Part shown: one piece after another, positions 3,846-63,966 of the stretch
Layout: each line of letters begins with the position of its first letter
Position numbering within the stretch: position 1 is the first letter of the stretch
NCBI GenBank assembly: GCA_964610305.1
Contig: CAZSVL010000003.1
Coordinates: 13,122-77,121, forward strand
Length of the DNA: 64,000 nucleotides
Direction of reading: 5' to 3'
From: an uncultured Gammaproteobacteria bacterium
GTDB taxonomy: Bacteria; Patescibacteriota; Patescibacteriia; Magasanikbacterales; JBBTXJ01
The notes under the pieces: model-generated
Told to the model about the DNA's origin: nothing
What the model saw: only the letters and a program-made list of their open reading frames with translations
Database searches by the model: none
Translations under genes and position numbers: made by a program

Positions 3846-4061
3846 ATGCAAATCAAAAAGCAAGACAAAATGTGCTACTACTGTGTTAAGAACTCAGAGA
3901 TAGCGCCAACTGACGCCGTAACACTGCAACGGTTTATTTCTTCATATAAAAAAATTCAGCCTAGAAAAAGAAGCGGTTTGTGCGCCCTTCATCAGCGCAA
4001 GGTTTCTAAGGCCATCAAGCAGGCCAGAATAATGGGTCTTCTTCCGTTTGTTGCAGAGTAG
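3846..4061 (+). CDS. rpsR: 30S ribosomal protein S18
   Basis: CYYC...LQRFISSYKKIQPRKRSGLCALHQRKVSKAIKQARIMGLLPF matches the S18 consensus. Confidence 0.9.
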   Translation: MQIKKQDKMCYYCVKNSEIAPTDAVTLQRFISSYKKIQPRKRSGLCALHQRKVSKAIKQARIMGLLPFVAE

Positions 4062-4065
4062 CTTG

Positions 4066-4223
4066 TAGTATAGAGTATTCAGTATTGAGTATTCAGCGGG
4101 TGCCCGCTTGTCATTCTGAACTTGATTCAGAATCCAGTTAGAAATAGAGCGCGTTTTATATTTCTGCCTGGATCCCGGATCAAGTCCGGGATGACGCTTA
4201 AACGTACTGAATACTCTATACTC
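4066..4223. repeat. GTCAT-family twin-hairpin repeat element (core 4110-4195) nested in longer outer inverted repeats
   Basis: GTCATTCTGAACTTGATTCAGAATCCAG...CTGGATCCCGGATCAAGTCCGGGATGAC, flanked by tagtatagagtattcagta / tactgaatactctatactc. Confidence 0.8.
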
Positions 4224-4227
4224 AAAA

Positions 4228-4788
4228 ATGGCATCCTACGAGATTTTAAAAAAGGGGACCGTTATCAAATATAAAGGTGCTCCTCATGTGGTGGTTTTTC
4301 ACCAGCATTATAAACCGGGCAAAGGCCCGGCTTTTGTGCGCACAAAGCTTAAGAATCTTATATCTGGAAACGTAATAGAGAATAATTTTAAGGGCGGAGA
4401 TCAGGTGGAGCCGGTAGAGGTAGAGCGTCAGAATTTGCAGTACTTATATCCGGGAGAGGGCGAGTATAATTTTATGCGTACCGATACCTATGAGCAAATA
4501 TCAATTCCGGCAGATGTAGTAGGGGATCAAATGCAATGGCTTAAAGAGAGTCAAGAGGTAATTGGACTTTTTTTTGAAGGATCAGTTGTTTCCGTAGATA
4601 TTCCAACCAAGTTAACGCTAAAAGTTGTCTCTGCTGGAGAGGGTGTTCGCGGTGATACGGCATCCGGAACCGCCACAAAAGAGGTGGAGCTAGAGACGGG
4701 AACAAAAATTCAGGTCCCACTTTTTATAAAACAAGGTCAGTCCGTTGTAATAAACACGGAAACAGGAAGCTACGCAGAAAGAGTGTAG
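4228..4788 (+). CDS. efp: Elongation factor P
   Basis: 186 aa. KGG...ATKEVELETGTKIQVPLFIKQGQSVVINTETGSYAERV matches the EF-P C-terminus. Confidence 0.9.
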   Translation: MASYEILKKGTVIKYKGAPHVVVFHQHYKPGKGPAFVRTKLKNLISGNVIENNFKGGDQVEPVEVERQNLQYLYPGEGEYNFMRTDTYEQISIPADVVGDQMQWLKESQEVIGLFFEGSVVSVDIPTKLTLKVVSAGEGVRGDTASGTATKEVELETGTKIQVPLFIKQGQSVVINTETGSYAERV

Positions 4789-11909: not shown

Positions 11910-12228
11910 GTGCTTCCCCTTTCTGTGATTGTCTACTGTCTGTCCTACGGGCCGACCATGTGGTGGACATGATCGGCCGCTAGGACAGACTAGCGGGAAA
12001 AATTAGTCAGTAACAGTGGTCCTGATGCCCGAAGGCACCAGGGGACACTCGTTACTCACAAGTGTCTTAACCGGAAGGGCACGGCGCAACTGCAGCACGT
12101 TCTGGAAACCAGACCGCCACAGCATGGGTACGTCGCGCACAACCGAAATCATTGGCATTGGTAAACCCTCCCGCAAGCAGGAGGAGTGACGCGTCCAAAG
12201 CATGGATTGGGCGCGATACTCCTCTTCC

Positions 12229-12316
12229 GTCATTCTGAACTTGATTCAGAATCTCCCAAAGAAAACGGTTTAAGAAAAACGTCTTCTGTGAGATCCCAGA
12301 TCTTCTCTGGGATGAC
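12229..12316. repeat. GTCAT-family twin-hairpin repeat element
   Basis: GTCATTCTGAACTTGATTCAGAATCTC...GAGATCCCAGATCTTCTCTGGGATGAC. Confidence 0.8.
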
Positions 12317-12872: not shown

Positions 12873-13142
12873 ACTCCCTCCCAAGAGTTCGTTTTCAAAC
12901 AAAAACAGTCACAGATCGTCCTCGGTAGCATGGCTGGCGCTTACCTTTTTTGTATATAGGTTTATATGCGACAGGTGCCCCCTCGGACGATCTCTGACTG
13001 CTTTAAAATTGTTAACGTTCTTTGCAACGACGATATCATTATAATACCGCAACTGCACACTATAGCACACTTTTGTCATTTTGTCAAGAGGAGATGCCTA
13101 TAATTTGGCTTATTTTAGCGCGATTTTGCATTTTGCTTCAGG

Positions 13143-13309
13143 GGTTAGGGGTTAGCGTGTAGGGTGTAGTGGTATCACCTTGTCATTCTGAACTTGATTC
13201 AGAATCTAGGAAGAAATTGAGCACGTCTTACTGTTCTAGTGGATCCTGAATCAAGTTCAGGATGATGCTATAGAGATTCTACACCCTACACCCTACGCCC
13301 TAACCACTA
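13143..13309. repeat. GTCAT-family twin-hairpin element (core 13192-13268) nested in ~30-bp outer inverted repeats
   Basis: Outer ggttaggggttagcgtgtagggtgtagtgg / ctacaccctacaccctacgccctaaccactag. Core GTCATTCTGAACTTGATTCAGAATC...GGATCCTGAATCAAGTTCAGGATGATGC. Confidence 0.8.
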
Positions 13310-13525
13310 GAGACTGTGGATACACTATTTGACAAACGTCAAACAACCGTATAGAATAACGCTGATTTTTAGCGTCTTTGACGCACTTAAACTTTTGCCC
13401 TTATTTTAGCAAAAAAATCAATGAAGGGCCGCCTCCGCGTTGATACAAATTAAGTAAATTTAGCCAAAAACGCCCTATGGGCGCTACTTTTTGTTCTGCG
13501 GAAAAAAATCGCTTTCATTTTCTGT

Positions 13526-24874: not shown

Positions 24875-24910
24875 TTTCTTGCCCGGAGAAATCCGGGTTT
24901 TTGATATTTT

Positions 24911-24982
24911 GTCATTGCGAGCGAAGCGAAGCAATCCCGTTGCTAACTTGTTGGGATTGCTTCGCCTCCGGCTCGCAATGAC
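24911..24982. repeat. GTCAT-family long-hairpin repeat (subtype B)
   Basis: GTCATTGCGAGCGAAGCGAAGCAATCCC...GGGATTGCTTCGCCTCCGGCTCGCAATGAC. Confidence 0.8.
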
Positions 24983-25034
24983 AAAAAAGATCGCGCCTGT
25001 TGAAAAAGAGTAGCCCTTTTGATACTCTAAGCGC

Positions 25035-25733
25035 ATGTCAGGTCACTCAAAATGGTCAAAAATTAAGCGACAAAAAGGCGCGGCTGATGCGGCGCGCGGG
25101 AATTTGTTTACCAAACTTTCTAAAGCCATAAGCATCGCAGCGCGTAGCGGCGGTGATCCAGAGATGAATTTCTCTCTGCGCCTTGCTATAGATAAGGCGC
25201 GCGCTTCTAACATGCCTAAAGATAATATAGATAAAGCAATAAGACGCGGCACGGGAGAGGATAAATCCGCCGCGGTTATTGAAGAGCTTATGTATGAGGG
25301 TTTTGGTCCGGGTGGTGTGGGGGTTTTGGTAGAAGTGGCAACAGATAACAGAAACAGATCTGGCGCCGATATAAAGCATTTACTCTCAAAATATGGAGGA
25401 GGCTTGAGTGGGCCGGGAAGCGTAAAATGGCAGTTTGAACAGAAGGGTGTGATTTATTTAAAAGATATGCCAGATGATGATCTGCAGTTAGAGCTAATGG
25501 ACGCGGGAGCTGATGATATAGTCTCTGAGGATGGTGCTATAATTTATACGGCGATTGGGGACTTTAAAAAAGTAATGACAACTTTACAAAACGCGGATTT
25601 GTCACCTGAAGAGTCTGGTTTGGAGTGGGTGGCTAAAGATACTGTGGCGGCTGATGCGGGAAAACTTGAAAAATTTATCGAGAGATTAGAAGAGCACGAT
25701 GATGTTCAAAATGTTTATACGAACGCGCAGTGA
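25035..25733 (+). CDS. yebC: YebC/PmpR-family DNA-binding regulator
   Basis: MSGHSKWSKIKRQKG... the canonical YebC N-terminus. Confidence 0.9.
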   Translation: MSGHSKWSKIKRQKGAADAARGNLFTKLSKAISIAARSGGDPEMNFSLRLAIDKARASNMPKDNIDKAIRRGTGEDKSAAVIEELMYEGFGPGGVGVLVEVATDNRNRSGADIKHLLSKYGGGLSGPGSVKWQFEQKGVIYLKDMPDDDLQLELMDAGADDIVSEDGAIIYTAIGDFKKVMTTLQNADLSPEESGLEWVAKDTVAADAGKLEKFIERLEEHDDVQNVYTNAQ

Positions 25734-25754
25734 CGGCTGCATGTAAGAGAGTCT

Positions 25755-26175
25755 GCTGTAGGCTTTAGGCTGTATGCTGTAAGATTGTTCTATGGAGAAT
25801 TTTAAAAAATTGGAGGTTTGGCAGCTTGCGCGAGGGTTGGTTGGGCAAGTCTATAGAATAACGGCGCATTTTCCTGCGGAGGAGCGATTTGGTTTAGTAT
25901 CTCAGATGAGGCGTGCTGCAATATCGGTTATGGCAAATATTGCTGAAGGATCAAAACGACAGACTGTCAAAGACAGAACCCATTTTCATGTAATAGCAGA
26001 CACATCTTTGGAGGAGCTTAAATGCTACTTTGTGGTATCATACGATTTAGACTATATAGGCAGGCAGGAGGGCGAAGTCATGACGCAGATGGCACGAAAA
26101 ATTGGAGGAAAACTAACAAGATTAACGCAAAGTCTCAAGCCGCGGGCATAAAGCATACAGCCTAAAGCCTACAGC
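25755..26175 (+). mobile_element. Four-helix-bundle-protein cassette flanked by perfect 24-bp inverted repeats (IVS-like element)
   Basis: gctgtaggctttaggctgtatgct at 25755-25778 and its exact reverse complement at 26152-26175 bracket the ORF. Confidence 0.6.
25792..26151 (+). CDS. Four helix bundle protein (the family encoded in 23S rRNA intervening sequences)
   Basis: LEVWQLARGLVGQVYRITAHFPAEERFGLVSQMRRAAISVMANIAEG matches the TIGR02436-type pattern. Confidence 0.8.
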   Translation: MENFKKLEVWQLARGLVGQVYRITAHFPAEERFGLVSQMRRAAISVMANIAEGSKRQTVKDRTHFHVIADTSLEELKCYFVVSYDLDYIGRQEGEVMTQMARKIGGKLTRLTQSLKPRA

Positions 26176-26184
26176 ATTATTCTT

Positions 26185-26670
26185 ATGTCAATCATCCTAG
26201 GAGTAGACCCAGGTTTTGGAAGAACAGGTTTTGGAGTAATCAAAGTTGAAGGAAATGGCAGGCACGTTTTAGACGTGGGGTGCATTGAAACGGCCAAAAG
26301 TCTTGCTCATGAGAATCGGCTTTTGCAGATATATCAGGATGTAACTAATTTGATAAAACAACACGACGTAAAAAAAGTAGCCATAGAGCGGCTTTTTTTT
26401 AATAAAAACGTCACCACGGCTTTGGGGGTGGGAGAGGCGCGCGGCGTGGTGCTTTTGGCCGCGGCTGAAAATGGCGCAACGCTTTTTGAGGCTACGCCAT
26501 CACAGGTAAAAATGGCCATCACAGGACACGGCGGTGCCACCAAGGCGCAGGTGCAGCACATGGTACAAGTAGTTTTGCAGCTAAAACAAAAACCGCGCCC
26601 AGACGACGCAGCAGATGCCCTAGCTATTGCGTACTGCTGTGCTCAGGCGGCTTGGCAGGATTCTCTTTAA
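26185..26670 (+). CDS. ruvC: Crossover junction endodeoxyribonuclease RuvC
   Basis: ILGVDPGFGRTGFGVI...AIERLFF...DAADALAIAY. Classic yebC-ruvC synteny. Confidence 0.9.
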   Translation: MSIILGVDPGFGRTGFGVIKVEGNGRHVLDVGCIETAKSLAHENRLLQIYQDVTNLIKQHDVKKVAIERLFFNKNVTTALGVGEARGVVLLAAAENGATLFEATPSQVKMAITGHGGATKAQVQHMVQVVLQLKQKPRPDDAADALAIAYCCAQAAWQDSL

Positions 26671-27540: not shown

Positions 27541-28857
27541 TTATGTGTTAACCTCCGTTGATAGATTAGCATTTTTTTTGTAGGAAATAAAGATGAGTGA
27601 AAGCAGAAGCCAAAAAATAACGGCAAGATCATTTTTAAAATAAGGGACATCCACCAGACCGTGAATTAAAATAGTCAACACTGCCGCAAGAAGCGGATAG
27701 TTTGGCGTCCGCATAATAGCCCAATAAAAAAGCAGGATAAAGGCAAGGACGCCAAGTAGTCCCAGCTCAACCCAAAAGTTAAGCAGTATATTGTGCGGGT
27801 ACTCAAACACCTCAATCCATTTGTCTATCCTATACCTATATATAGACTCCTTATAACTAGAGAGCCCAGTTCCTAAGAGTGGATGGTCGGAGATAAGTTC
27901 ACTAGCTTCCGCCCACATATCCAGCCGCAATCCGCCGCTGTAGTCTGCAAAAATAAGCTCTTGCTTTATGTTGGATAATCCAGGCGTAAGCATGATAGCG
28001 GCAGTAATTCCCAAGCCCGTTGCTCCAACAAAGAATCTCGTTTTTTTATGTATGACCCCAATTATAAAACCGGCTCCCGCAAGTGCTACAAGTGCGCCCG
28101 TTGTTTTTGCCCAGATGATGGCAAGAAAGCTTGCTGAAGTAACAAGTAACAAGTAACAAGTAACAAGTACGTCCTTCCACCTTTTTCTTGTGTGTGAGAA
28201 GTTTTTTATGGTTCTTGTTGCCTCGTCAATAAAAAGGGGTATGAGCGGTGCCATAAAAAGCCCAATGGCATTAGGAAATCCCCAAACGCTGGTAACGCGT
28301 CTTGTTTGCTCTGCTGCCCAATACGGATTAGGAATCCACACCCCCGTGAATTTTTGGTAGATGGCAATGATTGCAGTAGCTAAGACCGAAAGTGATAATG
28401 AAAAGATAATTGCGGGGCGATCAGTTTTTTTAAATGTAGTTATAAAAATGAAGAATAATGCTACCGGTTCTATAATATACGCTTTCCAAAGTCCGGCAGC
28501 AGCTCTTGTATCTGGCGCAATGATGAGCGATAGGGTTCCGGCTATAAGTAGCAGGGCGATCCCAAGCGCTAGCACCCATTCTTGTGTCATTCTGAGCGAA
28601 GCGAAGAATCCCGTCAAGCGACTAACTTGCTTTTTAAACGGGATTCTTCGCCTTTGGCTCAGAATGACTGCTTTTATCAGCCACATGACTGCAACAATCC
28701 AAATCATTACTTCAAGCAATGTGCTCGGCAAAGGCCCAATACTAAACCTAATAAGATACACAGGAAGCAACGCAATTAAAACAAGAAGCGCCCACCTAAG
28801 GCGGACGAGCGCGAGTGCTGCAAAGCCGATTGTAAAAGCTATAACAAGGCCGGTCAT
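27541..28857 (-). CDS. O-antigen ligase / Wzy-like polytopic membrane protein
   Basis: 438 aa, >10 TM helices, Wzy_C-like central loop. Contains an in-frame repeat element and a heptanucleotide tandem repeat. Confidence 0.6.
   Translation of the reverse strand: MTGLVIAFTIGFAALALVRLRWALLVLIALLPVYLIRFSIGPLPSTLLEVMIWIVAVMWLIKAVILSQRRRIPFKKQVSRLTGFFASLRMTQEWVLALGIALLLIAGTLSLIIAPDTRAAAGLWKAYIIEPVALFFIFITTFKKTDRPAIIFSLSLSVLATAIIAIYQKFTGVWIPNPYWAAEQTRRVTSVWGFPNAIGLFMAPLIPLFIDEATRTIKNFSHTRKRWKDVLVTCYLLLVTSASFLAIIWAKTTGALVALAGAGFIIGVIHKKTRFFVGATGLGITAAIMLTPGLSNIKQELIFADYSGGLRLDMWAEASELISDHPLLGTGLSSYKESIYRYRIDKWIEVFEYPHNILLNFWVELGLLGVLAFILLFYWAIMRTPNYPLLAAVLTILIHGLVDVPYFKNDLAVIFWLLLSLIFISYKKNANLSTEVNT
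28139..28171. repeat. Heptanucleotide tandem repeat (AGTAACA)x4 plus a partial copy, inside the Wzy-like CDS
   Basis: agtaacaagtaacaagtaacaagtaacaagtac. Confidence 0.9.
28586..28668. repeat. GTCAT-family long-hairpin repeat (subtype B) lying in-frame inside the CDS 27541-28857
   Basis: GTCATTCTGAGCGAAGCGAAGAATCCCGT...ACGGGATTCTTCGCCTTTGGCTCAGAATGAC. Translated as ...KAVILSQRRRIPFKKQVSRLTGFFASLRMTQ... Confidence 0.8.
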
Positions 28858-58192: not shown

Positions 58193-58222
58193 GAAAATGC
58201 CCCAGGTCTTACGCTGGGGCGG

Positions 58223-58585
58223 GGTGGAGGCGCCGGGAGTCGAACCCGGGTCCAGAAAGGTTGTTCATCTGCGTCTACGTGTGTATTCCTTGCATGGTTG
58301 CCTACGCTGCTTTGCCCAAGGACAGGCGGCTGCGCAGCCGGTTCATTGCTGTGTTTAAGACATGCTCCGCAATTCCATTAGAGCAGTACCGAGCCTACAT
58401 AAGTTTCCCTAATCCCGCCTATAGGCGAGCGAGCTTTGGGGTCGCATGCTGCGTACTAGGCAGCGAGCGCGACGGACTCAGCGTCAGTATTGGCGTCTGA
58501 GTTGCGCCCGGGGGATCAAAGGGTCCCAGACATCCCTTACACGCAGCAGGTAGCGTCCGCTCCCTGTCGAAACCAGTTCGCCCCC
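58223..58585 (-). ncRNA. ssrA: tmRNA (SsrA), tag peptide ANTDAESVALAA
   Basis: 5' GGGGGCGAACTGGTTTCGACAGGGA. tRNA-like 3' end GGGTTCGACTCCCGGCGCCTCCACC. In-frame GCC AAT ACT GAC GCT GAG TCC GTC GCG CTC GCT GCC TAG. Confidence 0.85.
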
Positions 58586-60514: not shown

Positions 60515-60670
60515 TGGAAGGGGTAGGATTCGATGAGCAAATGAGTGAGTGTAATAAACATGCTCGCATGCTTATTACCGAGCGAATGCTGCTCGGCCCG
60601 AAGGGCACCTACGAAGACGGTGTCGTCGGATTTACAATCCGGTGCCTTTAACCAACTCGGCCACCCTTCC
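60515..60670 (-). tRNA. tRNA-Tyr (anticodon GTA), type II, carrying a 73-nt structured insertion in the T-loop between nt 54 and 55 (60534-60606)
   Basis: GGAAGGG...CCGGA-TTGTAAA-TCCGA...GTAGG-T[GCCCTTCGGGCCGAGCAGCATTCGCTCGGTAATAAGCATGCGAGCATGTTTATTACACTCACTCATTTGCTCA]TCGAAT-CCTAC-CCCTTCC-A. Confidence 0.6.
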
Positions 60671-60677
60671 ATTAAAG

Positions 60678-60752
60678 TATCCCCAAGGGGATTTGAACCC
60701 CTGCCTCCGGATTGAGAGTCCGGTGTCCTGAGCCTGACTAGACGATGGGGAC
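60678..60752 (-). tRNA. tRNA-Glu (anticodon CTC)
   Basis: GTCCCCATCGTCTAG...CCGGA-CTCTCAA-TCCGG...GGGG-TTCAAAT-CCCC. Confidence 0.75.
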
Positions 60753-60756
60753 GGGG

Positions 60757-60830
60757 CGGTGATGACGAGACTTGAACTCGCAACCTTCGGCCTGACAAGC
60801 CGCTACACTAGCCAATTGTGTTACATCACC
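60757..60830 (-). tRNA. tRNA-Asp (anticodon GTC)
   Basis: Acceptor GGTGATG/CATCACC-G, anticodon loop TTGTCAG. Confidence 0.7.
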
Positions 60831-60868
60831 TGAAGGCTTGCCTGGCGTAGCCGAAGGCGAAGCCTGGG

Positions 60869-60941
60869 TGGAGCCGACAGGAATCGAACCTGCGACATCC
60901 GGCGTGCAAAGCCGGCGCTCTCCCAACTGAGCTACAGCCCC
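60869..60941 (-). tRNA. tRNA-Ala (anticodon TGC), G3-U70; second copy
   Basis: GGGGCTG-TA-GCTC-AGTTGGGA-GAGC-G-CCGGC-TTTGCAC-GCCGG...CGGCTCC-A. Confidence 0.8.
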
Positions 60942-60948
60942 AAATAGG

Positions 60949-61037
60949 AGGAGGGGGTGGGATTTGAACCCACGGGACTCACTGGTGAGCCCAACGGGTT
61001 AGCAACCCGACGCCTTCAGCCACTCGGCCACCCCTCC
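60949..61037 (-). tRNA. tRNA-Ser (anticodon GCT), type II
   Basis: Acceptor GGAGGGG/CCCCTCC, 3-bp D-stem, anticodon loop TTGCTAA, long variable arm GGGCTCACCAGTGAGTCC. Confidence 0.75.
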
Positions 61038-61041
61038 ATAA

Positions 61042-61116
61042 TGCGCCCGGCGGGATTTGAACCCGCAACCACTGGATCCGGAGTCCAGCGCTCTACATCC
61101 ATTGAGCTACGGGCGT
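61042..61116 (-). tRNA. tRNA-Arg (anticodon CCG)
   Basis: ACGCCCG-TA-GCTC-AATGGATGTA-GAGC-G-CTGGA-CTCCGGA-TCCAG...GCGGG-TTCAAAT-CCCGC-CGGGCGC-A (A1-C72 mismatch). Confidence 0.7.
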
Positions 61117-61126
61117 TCAATGCTGA

Positions 61127-61181
61127 GGGCCGACGCTTTGGTCGCCCCCCCGACCCCTTCGGGCGTCGGGGCTACGGACGC
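61127..61181 (-). repeat. 44-nt twin-hairpin element (61127-61170) with an upstream pseudo-acceptor GCGTCCG-TAGC (61171-61181), duplicating the tRNA-Arg(CCG) 5' end
   Basis: RNA sense: GCGTCCG TAGC [CCCGACGCCCGAAGGGGTCGGGGGGGCGACCAAAGCGTCGGCCC] TCAGCATTGA ACGCCCGTAGC... Confidence 0.6.
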
Positions 61182-61186
61182 TTAAG

Positions 61187-61259
61187 TACGCCGTGAGGGA
61201 ATTGAACCCCCGACCCATGGATTAAAAGTCCAGTGCTCTACCTACTGAGCTAACAGCGC
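61187..61259 (-). tRNA. tRNA-Lys (anticodon TTT)
   Basis: GCGCTGT-TA-GCTC-AGTAGGTA-GAGC-A-CTGGA-CTTTTAA-TCCAT...GGGGG-TTCAATT-CCCTC-ACGGCGT-A. Confidence 0.7.
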
Positions 61260-61265
61260 ATAAAA

Positions 61266-61338
61266 GGTGAATGACGGGACTTGAACCCGCGACCTCTGGA
61301 GCCACAATCCAGCGCTCTCCCATCTGAGCTACATTCAC
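61266..61338 (-). tRNA. tRNA-His (anticodon GTG), C73
   Basis: GTGAATG-TA-GCTC...CTGGA-TTGTGGC-TCCAG...GCGGG-TTCAAGT-CCCGT-CATTCAC-C. Confidence 0.75.
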
Positions 61339-61340
61339 AG

Positions 61341-61413
61341 TGCCAGAGACAAGAATTGAACTTGTGACTCAGGGATTTTCAATCCCCAGCTCTACCTACT
61401 GAGCTACCCTGGC
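61341..61413 (-). tRNA. tRNA-Phe (anticodon GAA), intact, A37
   Basis: GCCAGGG-TA-GCTC-AGTAGGTA-GAGC-T-GGGGA-TTGAAAA-TCCCT-GAGTC-ACAAG-TTCAATT-CTTGT-CTCTGGC-A. Confidence 0.8.
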
Positions 61414-61415
61414 AT

Positions 61416-61489
61416 AGAACGGAGGGGGACTCGAACCCCCGAACATCCGATTTGCAGTCGGAGCCCTTAGCCAACTCGGGTACCCGTTC
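61416..61489 (-). tRNA. tRNA-Cys (anticodon GCA), U73; second copy
   Basis: GAACGGG...TCCGA-CTGCAAA-TCGGA-TGTTC-GGGGG-TTCGAGT-CCCCC-TCCGTTC-T. Confidence 0.75.
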
Positions 61490-61496
61490 AGAGATT

Positions 61497-61530
61497 TGTC
61501 TCCCTTCGGGAGATCTCCCGAAGGGAGACA
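61497..61530. repeat. 34-bp perfect palindrome (twin hairpin) upstream of tRNA-Cys; homologous to 1419-1452
   Basis: tgtctcccttcgggagatctcccgaagggagaca. Confidence 0.85.
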
Positions 61531-61567
61531 GTCCTGTACCTAGCCAATTCGGACACTCATCCAGAAG

Positions 61568-61713
61568 TGCGCACACTTGGACTTGATCGGTAAACGAGTG
61601 AGTGGAGTAGGCATGCTTGCATGTCTACTCCCGAGCAAGTGCGACCGAGCCCGAAGGGTACCAAGGACCCTCTGGGTGTAAACCAGATGCTCTCCCAACT
61701 GAGCTATGCACGC
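61568..61713 (-). tRNA. tRNA-Val (anticodon TAC) carrying a 73-nt structured insertion in the T-loop between nt 54 and 55 (61587-61659)
   Basis: GCGTGCA-TA-GCTC-AGTTGGGA-GAGC-A-TCTGG-TTTACAC-CCAGA-GGGTC-CTTGG-T[ACCCTTCGGGCTCGGTCGCACTTGCTCGGGAGTAGACATGCAAGCATGCCTACTCCACTCACTCGTTTACCGA]TCAAGT-CCAAG-TGTGCGC-A. Confidence 0.6.
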
Positions 61714-61717
61714 GCAG

Positions 61718-61799
61718 TAGGTCGGGGGAGACTTGAACTCCCACGTCTAATGACACCAGATTTTGAATCTGGCGCGTCTACCGGTTCCGCCACCGACCC
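61718..61799 (-). tRNA. tRNA-Leu (anticodon CAA), type II
   Basis: GGGTCGG-TG-GCG...CCAGA-TTCAAAA-TCTGG-TGTCATTAGACGT-GGGAG-TTCAAGT-CTCCC-CCGACCT-A. Confidence 0.75.
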
Positions 61800-61871
61800 G
61801 TCTTTGTAATATGCTTCTATCAGAAAGTGAAGATTCACCGTCTGAATAAAAGGGGGAAGAGACTTCCCCGG

Positions 61872-61988
61872 AGCGGTAAGCCGGCCTCGAACCGACGACC
61901 CTCTGCTTGGAAGGCAGACGCTCTACCAACTGAGGACCGACGTTTCAGTCGGTCCCCCGACCCCTTTAGGCGTCGGGGCTATTACCGT
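61872..61988 (-). tRNA. tRNA-Gly (anticodon TCC) copy interrupted in the D-stem (between nt 11 and 12) by a 44-nt twin-hairpin element (61934-61977)
   Basis: ACGGTAA-TA-GC[CCCGACGCCTAAAGGGGTCGGGGGACCGACTGAAACGTCGGTCC]TC-AGTTGGTA-GAGC-G-TCTGC-CTTCCAA-GCAGA-GGGTC-GTCGG-TTCGAGG-CCGGC-TTACCGC-T. Confidence 0.55.
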
Positions 61989-61998
61989 AAATTTAAAG

Positions 61999-62071
61999 AG
62001 CGGATGATCGGGCTTGAACCGATGACTATCTGGTTGGAAGCCAGATGCTCTCCCAACTGAGCTACATCCGC
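61999..62071 (-). tRNA. tRNA-Gly (anticodon TCC), intact array copy
   Basis: GCGGATG-TA-GCTC-AGTTGGGA-GAGC-A-TCTGG-CTTCCAA-CCAGA-TAGTC-ATCGG-TTCAAGC-CCGAT-CATCCGC-T. Confidence 0.8.
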
Positions 62072-62075
62072 AAAG

Positions 62076-62148
62076 TACGCCGTGGAGGATTCGAACCTCC
62101 GACCGATGGATTAAGAGTCCACTGCTCTACCAACTGAGCTAACAGCGC
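62076..62148 (-). tRNA. tRNA-Lys (anticodon CTT)
   Basis: GCGCTGT-TA-GCTC-AGTTGGTA-GAGC-A-GTGGA-CTCTTAA-TCCAT-CGGTC-GGAGG-TTCGAAT-CCTCC-ACGGCGT-A. Confidence 0.75.
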
Positions 62149-62153
62149 AAAAG

Positions 62154-62224
62154 CTCGGGAACTAGGATTCGAACCTAGATGAACTGATCCAGAGTCAGCC
62201 GTCCTGCCGTTAGACGATTCCCGA
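62154..62224 (-). tRNA. tRNA-Gln (anticodon CTG)
   Basis: TCGGGAA-TC-GTCT-AACGGCA-GGAC-G-GCTGA-CTCTGGA-TCAGT...CTAGG-TTCGAAT-CCTAG-TTCCCGA-G. Confidence 0.75.
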
Positions 62225-62234
62225 ATGGTTAGTT

Positions 62235-62309
62235 GTCATTGCGAGCAGTGTAACTGCGAAGCAATCCGGTATGTAAGCAACGGGATTGCTTCGCTTTGCT
62301 TGCAATGAC
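62235..62309. repeat. GTCAT-family long-hairpin repeat (subtype B) inside the tRNA array
   Basis: GTCATTGCGAGCAGTGTAACTGCGAAGCAATCC...GGGATTGCTTCGCTTTGCTTGCAATGAC. Confidence 0.8.
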
Positions 62310-62317
62310 GAGAGAGG

Positions 62318-62410
62318 AAGAGGGACTGGGATTCGAACCCAGGGAGCATCTTTTTAGGACGCCCAACGGTTTTCAAGACCGCCGCCTTCGACCAACTCGG
62401 CCACCCCTCC
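62318..62410 (-). tRNA. tRNA-Ser (anticodon TGA), type II
   Basis: GGAGGGG-TG-GCC...GCGGT-CTTGAAA-ACCGT + long variable arm + CTGGG-TTCGAAT-CCCAG-TCCCTCT-T. Confidence 0.7.
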
Positions 62411-62414
62411 AGAG

Positions 62415-62485
62415 CTCCGGAACTAGGATTCGAACCTAGATAATAAGATCCAAAGTCTTACGTCCTGCCGTTAGACGATTCCGGA
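62415..62485 (-). tRNA. tRNA-Gln (anticodon TTG)
   Basis: TCCGGAA-TC-GTCT...TAAGA-CTTTGGA-TCTTA...CTAGG-TTCGAAT-CCTAG-TTCCGGA-G. Confidence 0.75.
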
Positions 62486-62503
62486 ATAAGGTGGTAAGAA
62501 AGG

Positions 62504-62577
62504 GGCCGGAGATCGGAATCGAACCGATGACCTGCGGGTTACAAATCCGCTGCTCTACCTAACTGAGCTAATCCGGC
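62504..62577 (-). tRNA. tRNA-Thr (anticodon TGT)
   Basis: GCCGGAT-TA-GCTC-AGTTAGGTA-GAGC-A-GCGGA-TTTGTAA-CCCGC-AGGTC-ATCGG-TTCGATT-CCGAT-CTCCGGC-C. Confidence 0.65.
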
Positions 62578-62582
62578 AAAAG

Positions 62583-62656
62583 TACGCCACCTAGGATTTG
62601 AACCTAGGACCTCTGGCTCCGCAAGCCAACGCTCTGTCCAACTGAGCTAGTGGCGC
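62583..62656 (-). tRNA. tRNA-Arg (anticodon GCG)
   Basis: GCGCCAC-TA-GCTC-AGTTGGACA-GAGC-G-TTGGC-TTGCGGA-GCCAG-AGGTC-CTAGG-TTCAAAT-CCTAG-GTGGCGT-A. Confidence 0.65.
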
Positions 62657-62657
62657 G

Positions 62658-62729
62658 CAGGCGGGGGAGGATTTGAACCTCCAGTCCAGGATTTGGAATC
62701 CTGTGGTTTGCCAATTAACCGACCCACCC
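62658..62729 (-). tRNA. tRNA-Trp (anticodon CCA)
   Basis: GGGTGGG-TC-GGTT-AATTGGCA-AACC-A-CAGGA-TTCCAAA-TCCTG-GACTG-GAGG-TTCAAAT-CCTC-CCCGCCT-G. Confidence 0.7.
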
Positions 62730-62733
62730 AAAG

Positions 62734-62807
62734 TCCCCGGAGGTGGAGTTGAACCACCGACCTTTGGCATATCAGACCATTGCTCTAACCAACTGAGCTA
62801 CCCGGGA
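62734..62807 (-). tRNA. tRNA-Ile (anticodon GAT)
   Basis: TCCCGGG-TA-GCTC-AGTTGGTTA-GAGC-A-ATGGT-CTGATAT-GCCAA-AGGTC-GGTGG-TTCAACT-CCACC-TCCGGGG-A. Confidence 0.7.
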
Positions 62808-62813
62808 GTAAAG

Positions 62814-62898
62814 TAGGCGAGGTGGGACTTGAACCCACACGTCATAAGACACTGGAACCTAAACCCAGCGCGTCTGCCAAATGTTCCGCCACTCGCCC
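62814..62898 (-). tRNA. tRNA-Leu (anticodon TAG), type II
   Basis: GGGCGAG-TG-GCGG...CTGGG-TTTAGGT-TCCAG-TGTCTTATGACGT-GTGGG-TTCAAGT-CCCAC-CTCGCCT-A. Confidence 0.75.
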
Positions 62899-62903
62899 TT
62901 ATT

Positions 62904-63086
62904 TTATTTCCACTGTCTTTTGCGCAGCTTTTTCCAGCTTTTGCTACGGCTTGATCGTGACTCGTTCTCAAATGAGTGCGGCTTGCAAAAAGAGCACTTA
63001 CCTGTCTTCTGAGAAATGACACCACGCCGCGCTTGGTTGTAAATCCTGCTTTCCGTTGCGCCGTCCATGATCTTCTTGAAGCTCAT
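62904..63086 (-). CDS. Small basic hypothetical protein (60 aa) embedded in the tRNA array
   Basis: Strong ribosome-binding site AGGAGA, 5 nt, then ATG. MSFKKIMDGATESRIYNQARRGVISQKTGKCSFCKPHSF... has no family assignment. Confidence 0.4.
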   Translation of the reverse strand: MSFKKIMDGATESRIYNQARRGVISQKTGKCSFCKPHSFENESRSSRSKSWKKLRKRQWK

Positions 63087-63103
63087 TTCTATCTCCTAAG
63101 AAG

Positions 63104-63176
63104 TACGCCATGGAGGATTCGAACCTCCGACCAGTGGGTTAGAAATCCACTGCTCTGTCCCCTGAGCTAATGGCGC
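63104..63176 (-). tRNA. tRNA-Arg (anticodon TCT), intact
   Basis: GCGCCAT-TA-GCTC-AGGGGACA-GAGC-A-GTGGA-TTTCTAA-CCCAC-TGGTC-GGAGG-TTCGAAT-CCTCC-ATGGCGT-A. Confidence 0.75.
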
Positions 63177-63247
63177 ATAGTGCTTTCGCAAAGCTGCTGC
63201 TAAATGCCCGGCGCAGGGATCTGACGACCCCTGCGCCTGGGCTTGCG

Positions 63248-63700
63248 TTAGGCGCTCATGATCTGTTCTTGGCTCCAGAGTGAATCTGGTGTAAAGAACT
63301 GATCTGCAGGCAAGCGGCCTTTCTGGTACTGCTGTGCCTCAGGTGAATCCGGCGGGTATTCCGTAAGTGCGGTAAACACGCACGGGCCGGAAGACCAAGG
63401 TGCGGCTTGCACCGCTTCAAAGAGTACACGTCCCAAAGGGAAGGTAAACTTTGAAAGCGTCACAAGTGAATCTGCGCCACATTGCTCTGCTTCATCGCAC
63501 GGCAGCGCAAAGGGATCTAGCCAGCTGTAGCCTCCCTCCTGATGAAGAACCGTGCTCTTGTAGAGCAGTCGGTCCTCCTGAGGCTCTCTTGTGCCGTCCG
63601 GAAAAATCCGGACTACTTGCTCGGTACACCAGTGCACCTGCTCGCCTGCCACGAGCTCTTGGGCTTTTTGGGTAAGCCCGAACCACTGCGTTGCGCGCAT
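63248..63700 (-). CDS. Hypothetical protein (GC-rich)
   Basis: 150-aa ORF with composition atypical for the window. No family recognised. Confidence 0.4.
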   Translation of the reverse strand: MRATQWFGLTQKAQELVAGEQVHWCTEQVVRIFPDGTREPQEDRLLYKSTVLHQEGGYSWLDPFALPCDEAEQCGADSLVTLSKFTFPLGRVLFEAVQAAPWSSGPCVFTALTEYPPDSPEAQQYQKGRLPADQFFTPDSLWSQEQIMSA

Positions 63701-63810
63701 GCGTCCTCCTTTGCTGGCGCTTCTTCTCTGAGAATTTCATGCTAGGTTATCTCTAGCTAACCAACATGAAGGACGCTGCTTTTGTGCTTTGGAGCACAAG
63801 TATCCCCAAC

Positions 63811-63830
63811 CGGATTTGCCCTGCACTACA
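63811..63830 (-). pseudogene. Fragment of the tRNA-Glu 3' end (about 20 bp) followed by a 9-bp-stem hairpin
   Basis: tatccccaaccggatttgcc versus tatccccaaggggatttgaacc of the intact gene. Then the hairpin CACCCTGAAcctttatggTTCAGGGTG. Confidence 0.5.
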
Positions 63831-63891
63831 AGAGTGCGGGGCACCCTGAACCTTTATGGTTCAGGGTGAACCCTGAGAAAGTATCCCCAAG

Positions 63892-63966
63892 GGGATTTGA
63901 ACCCCTGTTGCCAGCTTGAAAGGCTGGCGTCCTAGGCCGTACTAGACGATGGGGACTAAAGTAGCG
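63892..63966 (-). tRNA. tRNA-Glu (anticodon TTC)
   Basis: GTCCCCATCGTCTAGTACGGCCTAGGAC-GCCAGC-CTTTCAA-GCTGGC...GGGG-TTCAAAT-CCCC-TTGGGGAT-A. Confidence 0.75.

What the first reader, a model, noticed from the sequence alone, without database searches (positions are those of the whole stretch)
25755..26175. Four-helix-bundle protein gene flanked by perfect 24-bp inverted repeats, inserted between yebC and ruvC
yebC-ruvC are normally adjacent. Here a 360-bp ORF encoding the four-helix-bundle protein family typical of 23S rRNA intervening sequences is bracketed by exact inverted repeats (gctgtaggctttaggctgtatgct and its reverse complement). In rRNA intervening sequences, such inverted repeats form the RNase III-cleaved stem. 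Finding the same architecture in a protein-coding intergenic site suggests a mobile intervening-sequence-like cassette, or a stem-processed transcript.
Basis: partly seen in the sequence, partly recalled or inferred. Interest (0 to 1): 0.65.

Follow-up and report, generated by a model that had tools for sequence, protein, structure and literature searches.

The report
Hairpin-armed gene cassette inside an operon
A small gene of the kind known from ribosomal-RNA "intervening sequences", bracketed by mirror-image runs of 7-base repeats, sits between two housekeeping genes, and the same repeat-armed design surrounds this gene family in most bacteria I sampled, which points to a widespread, barely described insertable element.

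Summary
A 119-aa PF05635/TIGR02436 four-helix-bundle gene (25792-26151, +) lies between yebC and ruvC. It is bracketed by inverted repeats with a perfect 24-nt core (27 of 28 nt over the longer arms).

The ORF-bearing 23S rRNA intervening sequence (IVS) of Coxiella has the same design.

In 161 homologous loci from many phyla, about 76% of these genes carry locus-specific inverted arrays. Period 7 dominates and the median is about 4 units per arm.

Cultured Nostoc plasmids give clean occupied and empty sites. The inserted DNA begins and ends with the arrays, and two different cassettes occupy different junctions of one operon.

The window's nearest relatives carry a NUDIX gene in the yebC|ruvC slot. 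A more distant relative has nothing there.

The window also holds two ORF-less hairpin elements with heptamer arms, one of them absent from a close relative.

Best reading: an IVS-type insertable cassette whose arms would form a long RNA stem in the operon transcript, a likely RNase III substrate. Processing and the means of movement are inferred, not shown. The kind is known from rRNA. The operon location and the family-wide heptamer-arm rule appear undescribed.

The parts
25035..25733 (+). yebC (TACO1/YebC family), upstream host gene; homology to relatives ends at its stop codon
   Evidence: Pfam PF20772 + PF01709; blastn and alignment to L082/L084
25754..25781 (+). Left arm: four tandem heptamers GCTGTAG GCTTTAG GCTGTAT GCTGTAA (units run 25755-25782); perfect core 25755-25778
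   Evidence: the repeat finder I1; the DNA search; TRF period 7, 3.9 copies
25792..26151 (+). Cargo ORF: 119-aa four-helix-bundle protein (23S_rRNA_IVP / S23p / TIGR02436 family). It keeps all 12 invariant residues of a 40-sequence alignment, including R41, N49 and E52; S45 (conserved in at least 90%) is also present
26149..26176 (-). Right arm: reverse complement of the left array (GCTGTAG GCTTTAG GCTGTAT GCTTTAT on the - strand); perfect core 26152-26175; contains the ORF's TAA stop
26185..26670 (+). ruvC, downstream host gene; it starts 8 nt after the right arm
   Evidence: Pfam PF02075; synteny with relatives resumes at its start
25741..25749 (+). Possible weak outer extension of the stem (9 pairs, three of them G-U) with 26180-26188, which covers the ruvC start codon. 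Seen only in the minimum-energy fold, so uncertain
   Evidence: strand folding
4062..4227 (+). ORF-less element with the same arm design (arrays GTAGTAT AGAGTAT TCAGTAT TGAGTAT / CTGAATACTCTATACTC) around a ~110-nt hairpin core, between rpsR and efp. It is absent from the closest relative, whose spacer is 9 nt
   Evidence: (z = -10.8)
13139..13312 (+). Second ORF-less element: same core as 4062-4227 but different heptamers (AGGGGTT/AGGGTGT ... CCTACAC)
   Evidence: (z = -7.6)

Best explanation
The feature is a complete cassette of the type found in ORF-bearing 23S rRNA intervening sequences: [array of about four 7-nt repeats] - [four-helix-bundle gene] - [the same array inverted]. It has been inserted, in the sense orientation, into the spacer of the yebC-ruvC transcription unit of a Patescibacteria-like genome.

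The arrays are the termini of the inserted DNA. This is shown for homologous elements and inferred for this one.

When the operon is transcribed, the two arms would pair into a perfect 24-bp stem (27 of 28 bp over the longer arms) that closes off the ORF as a 367-nt loop. By analogy with the rRNA IVSs, RNase III would cut this stem. That would release the cassette RNA and separate the yebC and ruvC messages, so the insertion would be tolerated inside a housekeeping operon. This step is inferred.

The encoded protein belongs to a family of pentameric nucleic-acid and reverse-transcriptase binding scaffolds (XCC0516, Avd). It most likely binds the cassette's own repeat arms, as RNA or DNA, and is the element-encoded factor for maintenance or spread. 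This step is speculative.
For: Anatomy. The minimum-energy RNA fold pairs the arms (-140 kcal/mol, z = -3.7).

Same design in a proven IVS: the Coxiella IVS carries GACAGAT x3 upstream of the S23p ORF, and RNase III cuts at the first repeat (PMC4990558). The family also occurs in 16S and 23S insertions of CPR (candidate phyla radiation) bacteria.

Family-wide rule, from 161 loci:
- The flanking inverted-repeat (IR) score has median 34, against 16 for 691 control ORFs. 76% exceed the control 95th percentile.
- A locus's own arms beat arms from other loci: 78% exceed the cross-locus 95th percentile.
- 139 of 175 arrays have period 7 and 32 have period 8.
- The median is 4.1-4.3 units per arm.
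- G exceeds C upstream on the sense strand in 104 of 122 loci.
- The gene is co-oriented with its upstream neighbour in 114 of 131 cases.

Insertion unit: in Nostoc plasmids the empty B|C and C|D junctions are 2-3 nt long, and the occupied ones hold a cassette whose first and last bases are the arrays. Two cassettes (43% protein identity, different heptamers) sit in different junctions of the same operon.

Window slot: NUDIX in two relatives, nothing in a third, with synteny otherwise kept.

Closest homologs lie in other contexts with related GCNNTAR arms, and arm similarity tracks protein identity (Mantel 0/300).

The ORF-less element at 4062-4227 is absent from a relative with 94% identical EF-P.

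Protein fold and relatives.
Against: No transcript data exist, and no RNase III gene lies in the 64 kb, which is uninformative.

Mismatches between arms show no excess of wobble-compatible changes on the sense strand: 99 sense G-U against 143 antisense, with 257 transversions. Selection for RNA pairing is therefore not demonstrated, and arm matching could be kept at the DNA level or by a protein.

Arm copy numbers often differ between the two sides.

There is only one copy of this cassette in the window. There is no clean empty site for this copy and no target-site duplication.

The three repeat-armed elements in the window use three different heptamers, which argues against one protein with one sequence specificity.

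The protein has no known catalytic domain.
Confidence: 0.6

Rival explanations
1. DNA-level element: the inverted heptamer arrays are transposon-like ends with iterated binding sites. The four-helix-bundle multimer, or a host factor it recruits, synapses them for excision and insertion, and the RNA stem is a by-product. This is not exclusive of the main explanation.
For: The arrays are the exact termini of the inserted DNA. ORF-less elements with the same arm design co-occur, often with the same heptamer as the nearby cassette, which resembles autonomous and non-autonomous pairs. There is no wobble signature of RNA selection. Arms and protein are co-inherited.
Against: The protein has no transposase, recombinase or nuclease signature. 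No target-site duplication is seen at three junctions. A strong strand and orientation bias relative to the host operon is easier to explain at the RNA level. Three different heptamers occur in one genome window.
Confidence: 0.25
2. A domesticated, now immobile host gene. The stem is a cis-regulatory device (processing site, insulator or translational occlusion) that sets the relative expression of yebC, the four-helix protein and ruvC.
For: The ORF is intact with all family-invariant residues. GC and GC3 match the flanks. The start codon lies 10 nt from the stem and the stop lies inside it, so stem formation could gate translation. Some cassettes persist at orthologous sites across Nostoc strains.
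Against: The two nearest relatives lack the gene and have NUDIX in the slot. Homologs are scattered over unrelated contexts. One orthologous copy is already disrupted by a nested insertion. In Coxiella the ORF is decaying and is probably not translated.
Confidence: 0.12
3. The arrays are G-quadruplex-forming or phase-variable simple sequence repeats, unrelated to the gene, as proposed for GGGAATC repeats in Xanthomonas.
For: Rehm et al. (PMC4692102) describe heptamer arrays, mostly of four units and often in convergent pairs. Copy number varies between orthologs.
Against: The window's units have no G-tracts. Only 4 of 85 upstream arrays have four or more GGG tracts. The arrays are tied to the gene: 47 of 64 inverted pairs enclose a four-helix ORF.
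Confidence: 0.02
4. Chance similarity or assembly artefact.
For: None.
Against: 0 of 100 shuffles reach 2 matches. An identical sequence is present on a second public contig. The same design occurs in finished genomes of cultured Nostoc.
Confidence: 0.01

Closest known systems
ORF-bearing 23S rRNA intervening sequences (Leptospira: Ralph & McClelland 1993, cited from memory and; Coxiella burnetii: PMC4990558)
   Same: Same protein family (S23p/PF05635). The ORF is enclosed by terminal inverted repeats that form a long stem. Tandem heptamers lie upstream of the ORF. The size is similar (about 420-430 nt) and the distribution is sporadic.
   Different: This one is not in an rRNA gene. It sits between two protein-coding genes of an operon. 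RNase III excision is shown for the IVSs and only inferred here.
Heptameric repeat arrays of Xanthomonas (GGGAATC) and Nostoc (GGGGAYT), Rehm et al. 2015, PMC4692102
   Same: 7-nt units, a modal array of about four units, frequent convergent inverted pairs in intergenic regions, and length variation between relatives.
   Different: Those arrays were read as G-quadruplex elements. No link to four-helix-bundle genes or to insertion was made. The window's units are not G-rich.
XCC0516 (PDB 2GSC) and BT_0352 (PDB 2RLD), structural-genomics proteins of unknown function
   Same: Same family and fold (profile E = 1e-31; TM 0.93). Both were deposited with five chains, and XCC0516 is described as a homopentamer in PMC4990558.
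   Different: No function is known for them. Their genomic flanks were not examined here.
Avd, accessory protein of diversity-generating retroelements (PDB 4DWL, 8UB7)
   Same: Related fold (TM about 0.79) and weak sequence similarity. Avd is a pentamer that binds a reverse transcriptase and structured RNA.
   Different: The window protein scores below both Avd model cutoffs. There is no reverse transcriptase and no template or variable repeats next to it.
MITEs, REP elements and small IS-like elements with terminal inverted repeats
   Same: Discrete insertions with inverted termini, presence/absence polymorphism, ORF-less derivatives and nesting.
   Different: No transposase and no target-site duplication are seen. 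The termini are tandem heptamer arrays whose sequence differs from locus to locus.

Membership tests
PF05635 / TIGR02436 four-helix-bundle (S23p, 23S_rRNA_IVP) protein family | Profile score above the curated cutoff | tested here: met
   PF05635 110.8 bits against 33.8; TIGR02436 100 bits against 24
PF05635 / TIGR02436 four-helix-bundle (S23p, 23S_rRNA_IVP) protein family | Four-helix up-down bundle like XCC0516 | tested here: met
   AlphaFold pLDDT 96.8 with four long helices; Foldseek TM 0.93, rmsd 1.2 to 2gsc
PF05635 / TIGR02436 four-helix-bundle (S23p, 23S_rRNA_IVP) protein family | Conserved RxxxSxxxNxxE motif | tested here: met
   R41, S45, N49 and E52 are present. R41, N49 and E52 are invariant and S45 is at least 90% conserved in 40 sequences. 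The motif is described in PMC3936711
PF05635 / TIGR02436 four-helix-bundle (S23p, 23S_rRNA_IVP) protein family | Homopentameric assembly | not testable with these tools
   Only a monomer was modelled
ORF-bearing 23S rRNA intervening sequence (IVS) | Inserted in a 23S (or 16S) rRNA gene helix | tested here: not met
   The flanks are yebC and ruvC, and Rfam finds no rRNA in the window. 0 of 161 homologous loci lie next to rRNA, though metagenome-assembled genomes under-represent rRNA operons
ORF-bearing 23S rRNA intervening sequence (IVS) | S23p-family ORF enclosed by terminal inverted repeats that form a stem | tested here: met
ORF-bearing 23S rRNA intervening sequence (IVS) | Tandem heptamers in the 5' arm (as in Coxiella) | tested here: met
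   TRF period 7, 3.9 copies; Coxiella GACAGAT repeats
ORF-bearing 23S rRNA intervening sequence (IVS) | Excision from the primary transcript by RNase III | not testable with these tools
   No transcript data
DGR accessory protein Avd | Score above the Avd model cutoffs | tested here: not met
   NF033474 32.2 against 80; PF22296 27.8 against 40
DGR accessory protein Avd | Adjacent reverse transcriptase with template and variable repeats | tested here: not met
   The immediate neighbours are yebC and ruvC. The rest of the window was not scanned for a reverse transcriptase
Transposable element with terminal inverted repeats (IS/MITE) | Inverted termini at the exact ends of the inserted DNA | tested here: inconclusive
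   Met for homologous cassettes (Nostoc) and for the window's ORF-less element. There is no clean empty site for this copy, because relatives have NUDIX in the slot
Transposable element with terminal inverted repeats (IS/MITE) | Element-encoded transposase or recombinase | tested here: not met
   Only PF05635 and weak Avd hits; nothing in PADLOC
Transposable element with terminal inverted repeats (IS/MITE) | Target-site duplication | tested here: not met
   No duplication of 3 nt or more at the rpsR|efp, B|C or C|D junctions
Transposable element with terminal inverted repeats (IS/MITE) | Several copies per genome | tested here: inconclusive
   One copy of this ORF and heptamer in 64 kb; the rest of the genome was not available
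G4-forming heptamer repeats (Rehm et al. 2015) | Four or more G-tracts per array | tested here: not met
   The units GCTGTAG and GCTTTAG have no GGG. Only 4 of 85 family arrays qualify

The most novel reading that the evidence does not exclude
PF05635 four-helix-bundle genes, together with their inverted arrays of about four 7-nt repeats, form a pan-bacterial class of insertable elements, complete with ORF-less derivatives. The classical ORF-bearing rRNA intervening sequences and the 'G4' heptamer repeat pairs of Xanthomonas and Nostoc would be special cases of it. The Avd-like pentamer would be the element's own end-binding factor, driving a mode of mobility that uses no known transposase fold.
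Probability: 0.3. Interest if true: 0.85.

Novelty: new variant of a known kind. Interest (0 to 1): 0.62.

Why it matters
The origin and mobility of bacterial rRNA intervening sequences, and the function of their conserved ORF, have been open since the early 1990s.

This locus and its relatives suggest that the rRNA location is incidental. In the sampled loci the same repeat-armed cassette sits mostly in tight spacers of ordinary operons, in both cultured and uncultured bacteria.

That gives testable material:
- Nostoc strains are cultured and carry occupied, empty and differently occupied sites, so processing, protein-arm binding and transposition could be tested there.
- It links three separately described oddities: IVS ORFs, heptamer repeat pairs, and '23S_rRNA_IVP' genes found inside cas operons.
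- It warns annotators that these arrays are element termini, not regulatory simple repeats or CRISPR-like arrays.

Tried and rejected
(1) All-frame stop codons. I asked whether heptamers are selected to close all three reading frames. 39% of arrays do, against 37.5% of column-permuted arrays. Rejected.

(2) G-quadruplex arrays. Only 4 of 85 arrays have four GGG tracts, and the window's has none. Rejected for this locus.

(3) Wobble test for a sense-strand RNA stem. 99 sense against 143 antisense wobble-type mismatches and 257 transversions. This gives no support and is possibly confounded by repeated units, so it stays inconclusive.

(4) rRNA context. blastn of E. coli 16S and 23S against all 161 loci gave no hit. 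This set contains no IVS examples for direct comparison.

(5) Phage and defence links. There was no tblastn hit in 50,697 phage records and no PADLOC model hit. PHROGs gave only a weak Avd hit.

(6) DGR membership. Below cutoffs and no adjacent reverse transcriptase.

(7) NUDIX elsewhere in the window, or a NUDIX remnant in the spacer. tblastn found nothing. The 20 nt between the yebC stop and the left arm could not be assigned.

(8) RNase III gene in the window. Uninformative.

(9) Rfam at relaxed threshold on the ORF-less element gave only chance miRNA hits.

(10) Literature. Eight searches found no paper linking four-helix-bundle genes to flanking heptamer arrays outside the Coxiella IVS. 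The library lacks many subscription papers.

Full report

Yes. The repeat finder reports arms at 25754-25781 and 26149-26176: 28 nt, 96% complementary, 367 nt apart. It has no other match at up to 3 mismatches, and no shuffle of 100 reached two matches.

Between the arms lies one ORF, 25792-26151 (+), of 119 aa. It matches PF05635 (23S_rRNA_IVP) at 110.8 bits and TIGR02436 'four helix bundle protein' at 100 bits, both far above the curated cutoffs. Its predicted structure is a confident four-helix bundle (pLDDT 96.8). It superposes on XCC0516 with TM 0.93, then on BT_0352, and more distantly on Avd of diversity-generating retroelements (sequence-level match).

The flanking genes are yebC (25035-25733) and ruvC (26185-26670), both on the + strand. 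The same 2196 nt occur base for base on a separately assembled public contig.

**2.

Each arm is a tandem array of four 7-nt units (TRF period 7, 3.9 copies).
- Left arm: GCTGTAG GCTTTAG GCTGTAT GCTGTAA.
- Right arm, read on the - strand: GCTGTAG GCTTTAG GCTGTAT GCTTTAT.

The variant units appear in the same order on both sides. In register the match is 26/28; shifted by one unit it is 17/21. So this is a true palindrome and not two independent arrays.

The start codon is 10 nt inside the left arm, and the TAA stop lies within the right arm. As RNA, the region folds with the arms paired (-140 kcal/mol, z = -3.7).

**3. Link to rRNA intervening sequences**

The Coxiella burnetii IVS is a 428-nt element in helix 45 of 23S rRNA. 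It carries an S23p ORF of this family, and three tandem heptamers (GACAGAT) lie just upstream of the ORF. RNase III cuts at the first repeat (PMC4990558). The family has also been found in 16S and 23S insertions of CPR bacteria and inside cas operons, for example between cmr3 and cmr2 (PMC3936711).

The window has no rRNA gene. The design is therefore that of an IVS, but the location is not.

**4. The design is a rule for the family**

I collected 80 loci from species-representative genomes and 80 from metagenomes. They cover Patescibacteria, Chloroflexota, Planctomycetota, Acidobacteriota, Bacteroidota, Proteobacteria, Cyanobacteria and others.

A local alignment of the 150 nt upstream against the reverse complement of the 150 nt downstream gave these results:
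- Median score 34 for the four-helix genes, against 16 for 691 other ORFs in the same loci. 76% exceed the control 95th percentile and 40% exceed the 99th.
- Pairing a locus's left flank with another locus's right flank gives a median of 15. 78% of own pairs exceed that 95th percentile. The two arms therefore covary within a locus, while the unit sequence differs between loci (GTAGACA, AGTAAGG, GGTTTAGR, AGTGACR, GGAGTCA and so on).
- Of 175 detected arrays, 139 have period 7 and 32 have period 8. Control windows rarely have such arrays (13 of 335).
- The median array has 4.1-4.3 units on either side. The window's 3.9 is typical.
- Upstream arrays are purine-rich, with G exceeding C on the sense strand in 104 of 122 loci.
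- The gene is co-oriented with its upstream neighbour in 114 of 131 cases and with its downstream neighbour in 108 of 138, with median gaps of 65 and 54 nt.
- None of the 161 loci is next to rRNA. Metagenome-assembled genomes under-represent rRNA operons, so this is biased.

Caveats: the control ORFs include spurious ones, and the loci were found through a conserved peptide pattern.

**5. The cassette is a unit of insertion**

The best evidence comes from finished plasmids of cultured Nostoc. A conserved four-gene operon A-B-C-D shows three states:
- No cassette in p057_H and pNsp_b, where the B|C spacer is GTT and the C|D spacer is CA.
- A cassette between B and C in pNPUN02, pNPUN01, pC052_D, pNsp_a and pNPM1.
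- A different cassette between C and D in pNsp_c, with 43% protein identity and GGGGAAA-type units.

In the occupied B|C site the inserted DNA starts right after the stop codon with ATCAGGAGTCAGGAGTCAG... and ends with ...CTTCTGGATTCTGA just before TT-ATG. The arrays are therefore the very ends of the insertion. I saw no target-site duplication.

Orthologous copies differ by whole units: pNPUN01 has three extra units on the left and one on the right. The pNPM1 copy is broken by a nested ORF-less element that has the same kind of heptamer arms.

A further pair concerns nrdB|nrdA. It is occupied in N. edaphicum pNe_5, where the cassette lies on the strand opposite to the nrd genes, and empty in Calothrix NIES-4105.

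**6. The window's own slot**

The two closest relatives have RuvC 84% and 80% identical to the window's. They keep the synteny glmS-yebC-X-ruvC-VKOR, which in the closer relative (L082, 84%) runs over 8.5 kb at about 72% nucleotide identity. In them, X is a 151-152-aa NUDIX gene packed with 2-3 nt spacers. Homology to the window stops at the yebC stop codon and resumes at the ruvC start. No NUDIX gene exists in the window.

A Magasanikbacteria relative has yebC and ruvC overlapping by one base. The slot is therefore variable: nothing, NUDIX, or the cassette. I cannot tell whether the cassette replaced NUDIX or entered an empty site.

The closest homologs of the protein itself (55-65% identity) lie in quite different places: after cheB, between a DEAD helicase and a PAS gene, and between peptidase M14 and pheT. 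Their arms are related to the window's (GCCGTAA, GCTTTAA, GCAGTAA). Across loci, arm similarity rises with protein identity (Mantel 0 of 300 permutations; median arm score 40 at 70-90% identity, falling to background below about 55%). So the arms travel with the gene but evolve much faster.

**7. ORF-less relatives in the same window**

Two long hairpins, at 4062-4227 and about 13139-13312, have inverted heptamer arrays around a shared ~110-nt core. Their heptamers differ from each other and from the cassette's. Their folds have z = -10.8 and -7.6.

The first lies between rpsR and efp. A relative with 94% identical EF-P has only TCTTTTAAA there, so the element, arrays included, is an insertion.

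In the 885 kb of collected loci, 64 inverted heptamer-array pairs were found. 47 enclose a four-helix ORF and 17 do not, and some of those 17 use the heptamer of the nearby cassette.

Rehm et al. described such arrays in Xanthomonas (GGGAATC, mostly four units, 70-75 convergent pairs per genome) and in Nostoc. They read them as G-quadruplex sequences and did not connect them to this gene family (PMC4692102).

**8. How it most likely works**

Shown:
- The anatomy of the cassette.
- The family-wide arm rule.
- Insertion polymorphism of homologous cassettes.
- The variable slot in relatives.

Inferred: co-transcription with yebC and ruvC would give a perfect dsRNA stem of 24-28 bp, which is the kind of substrate RNase III cuts in the rRNA IVSs. 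Excision at the RNA level would explain two things: why such elements survive in rRNA genes and in tight operon spacers, and why they are oriented with the host genes.

Speculative: the protein belongs to a pentameric family whose best-studied member, Avd, holds a reverse transcriptase and structured RNA. It may bind the arms and serve the element.

Against a purely RNA-level reading:
- Arm mismatches show no wobble bias on the sense strand.
- Arm lengths are often unequal.
- The arrays are the DNA termini of the insertion.

A DNA-level role for the arms is therefore a live rival and may coexist with the RNA role. The ideas of all-frame stop codons and G-quadruplexes were tested and dropped.

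**9. Comparison with known families**

The protein is a clear member of PF05635/TIGR02436. The element works like an ORF-bearing IVS but fails the defining feature of lying in an rRNA gene. It is not an Avd of a DGR, because it scores below the cutoffs and has no adjacent reverse transcriptase. It resembles a MITE or IS in its behaviour, but it lacks a transposase and target duplications.

**10. Verdict**

This is a real, well-formed element. For this locus the novelty is moderate: a known kind of cassette in an unusual place.

The follow-up suggests a broader pattern. Eight literature searches did not find it described. The pattern has three parts:
- Inverted arrays of about four heptamers are the normal termini of this gene family's cassettes across bacteria.
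- These cassettes insert into operon spacers.
- They have ORF-less companions.

Interest 0.62. The strongest reading, a new class of mobile element that unifies IVS ORFs and heptamer repeat pairs, has perhaps a 0.3 probability.

Noticed in passing
window 4062-4227: ORF-less hairpin element with inverted heptamer arms (AGTATWS units) between rpsR (3846-4061) and efp (4228-4788). The RNA fold has z = -10.8. It is absent from a relative with 94% identical EF-P, whose spacer is 9 nt.
   Followed up: yes
window 13139-13312: Second ORF-less element with the same ~110-nt core as 4062-4227 but different heptamers (AGGGGTT/AGGGTGT). The fold has z = -7.6. The corresponding site in relatives could not be fetched.
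   Followed up: partly
window 24910-24983; also 12227-12310, 28586-28668, 32806, 55577, 62235: A family of GTCATT[GC][CT]GA ... ATGAC palindromic hairpin elements, with 10 motif matches against 0.47 expected. One lies in the glmS-yebC spacer just upstream of the finding. One appears to lie in frame inside the Wzy_C-like ORF. At 12227 the flanks are conserved in a relative but the hairpin interior is different.
   Followed up: partly
window 28137-28169: A perfect heptamer array AAGTAAC x4.7 inside the Wzy_C-like ORF 27541-28857 (-). It falls in a segment where the window protein is about 10 aa longer than its relative.
   Followed up: partly
L190 (Nostoc pNPM1) about 1420-1640: The four-helix ORF of an orthologous cassette is interrupted by a ~200-nt ORF-less element whose arms are the same heptamer family (GAATTCA/GGAGTCA) as the host cassette's arms. 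This is a nested insertion.
   Followed up: partly
L182, L188, L189, L191 (Nostoc plasmids), right arms: The right heptamer array is partly translated as the C-terminal tail of the four-helix protein (...NSILTPGS...NSILTSDS...NSILTPDS). In the window the stop codon likewise lies inside the right arm.
   Followed up: no
L082 3544-3999, L084 2207-2665: In the two closest relatives a NUDIX hydrolase gene fills the yebC|ruvC slot with 2-3 nt spacers. It is nearly the same length (456-459 nt) as the window's cassette-bearing spacer (451 nt).
   Followed up: yes
window 45617-45837 (-), 60515-63956 (-), 58222-58585 (-): A group I intron (83.8 bits) lies close to tRNA genes. There is a dense array of about 27 tRNA genes, including one 156-nt match that may carry an intron. 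A tmRNA gene is also present.
   Followed up: no
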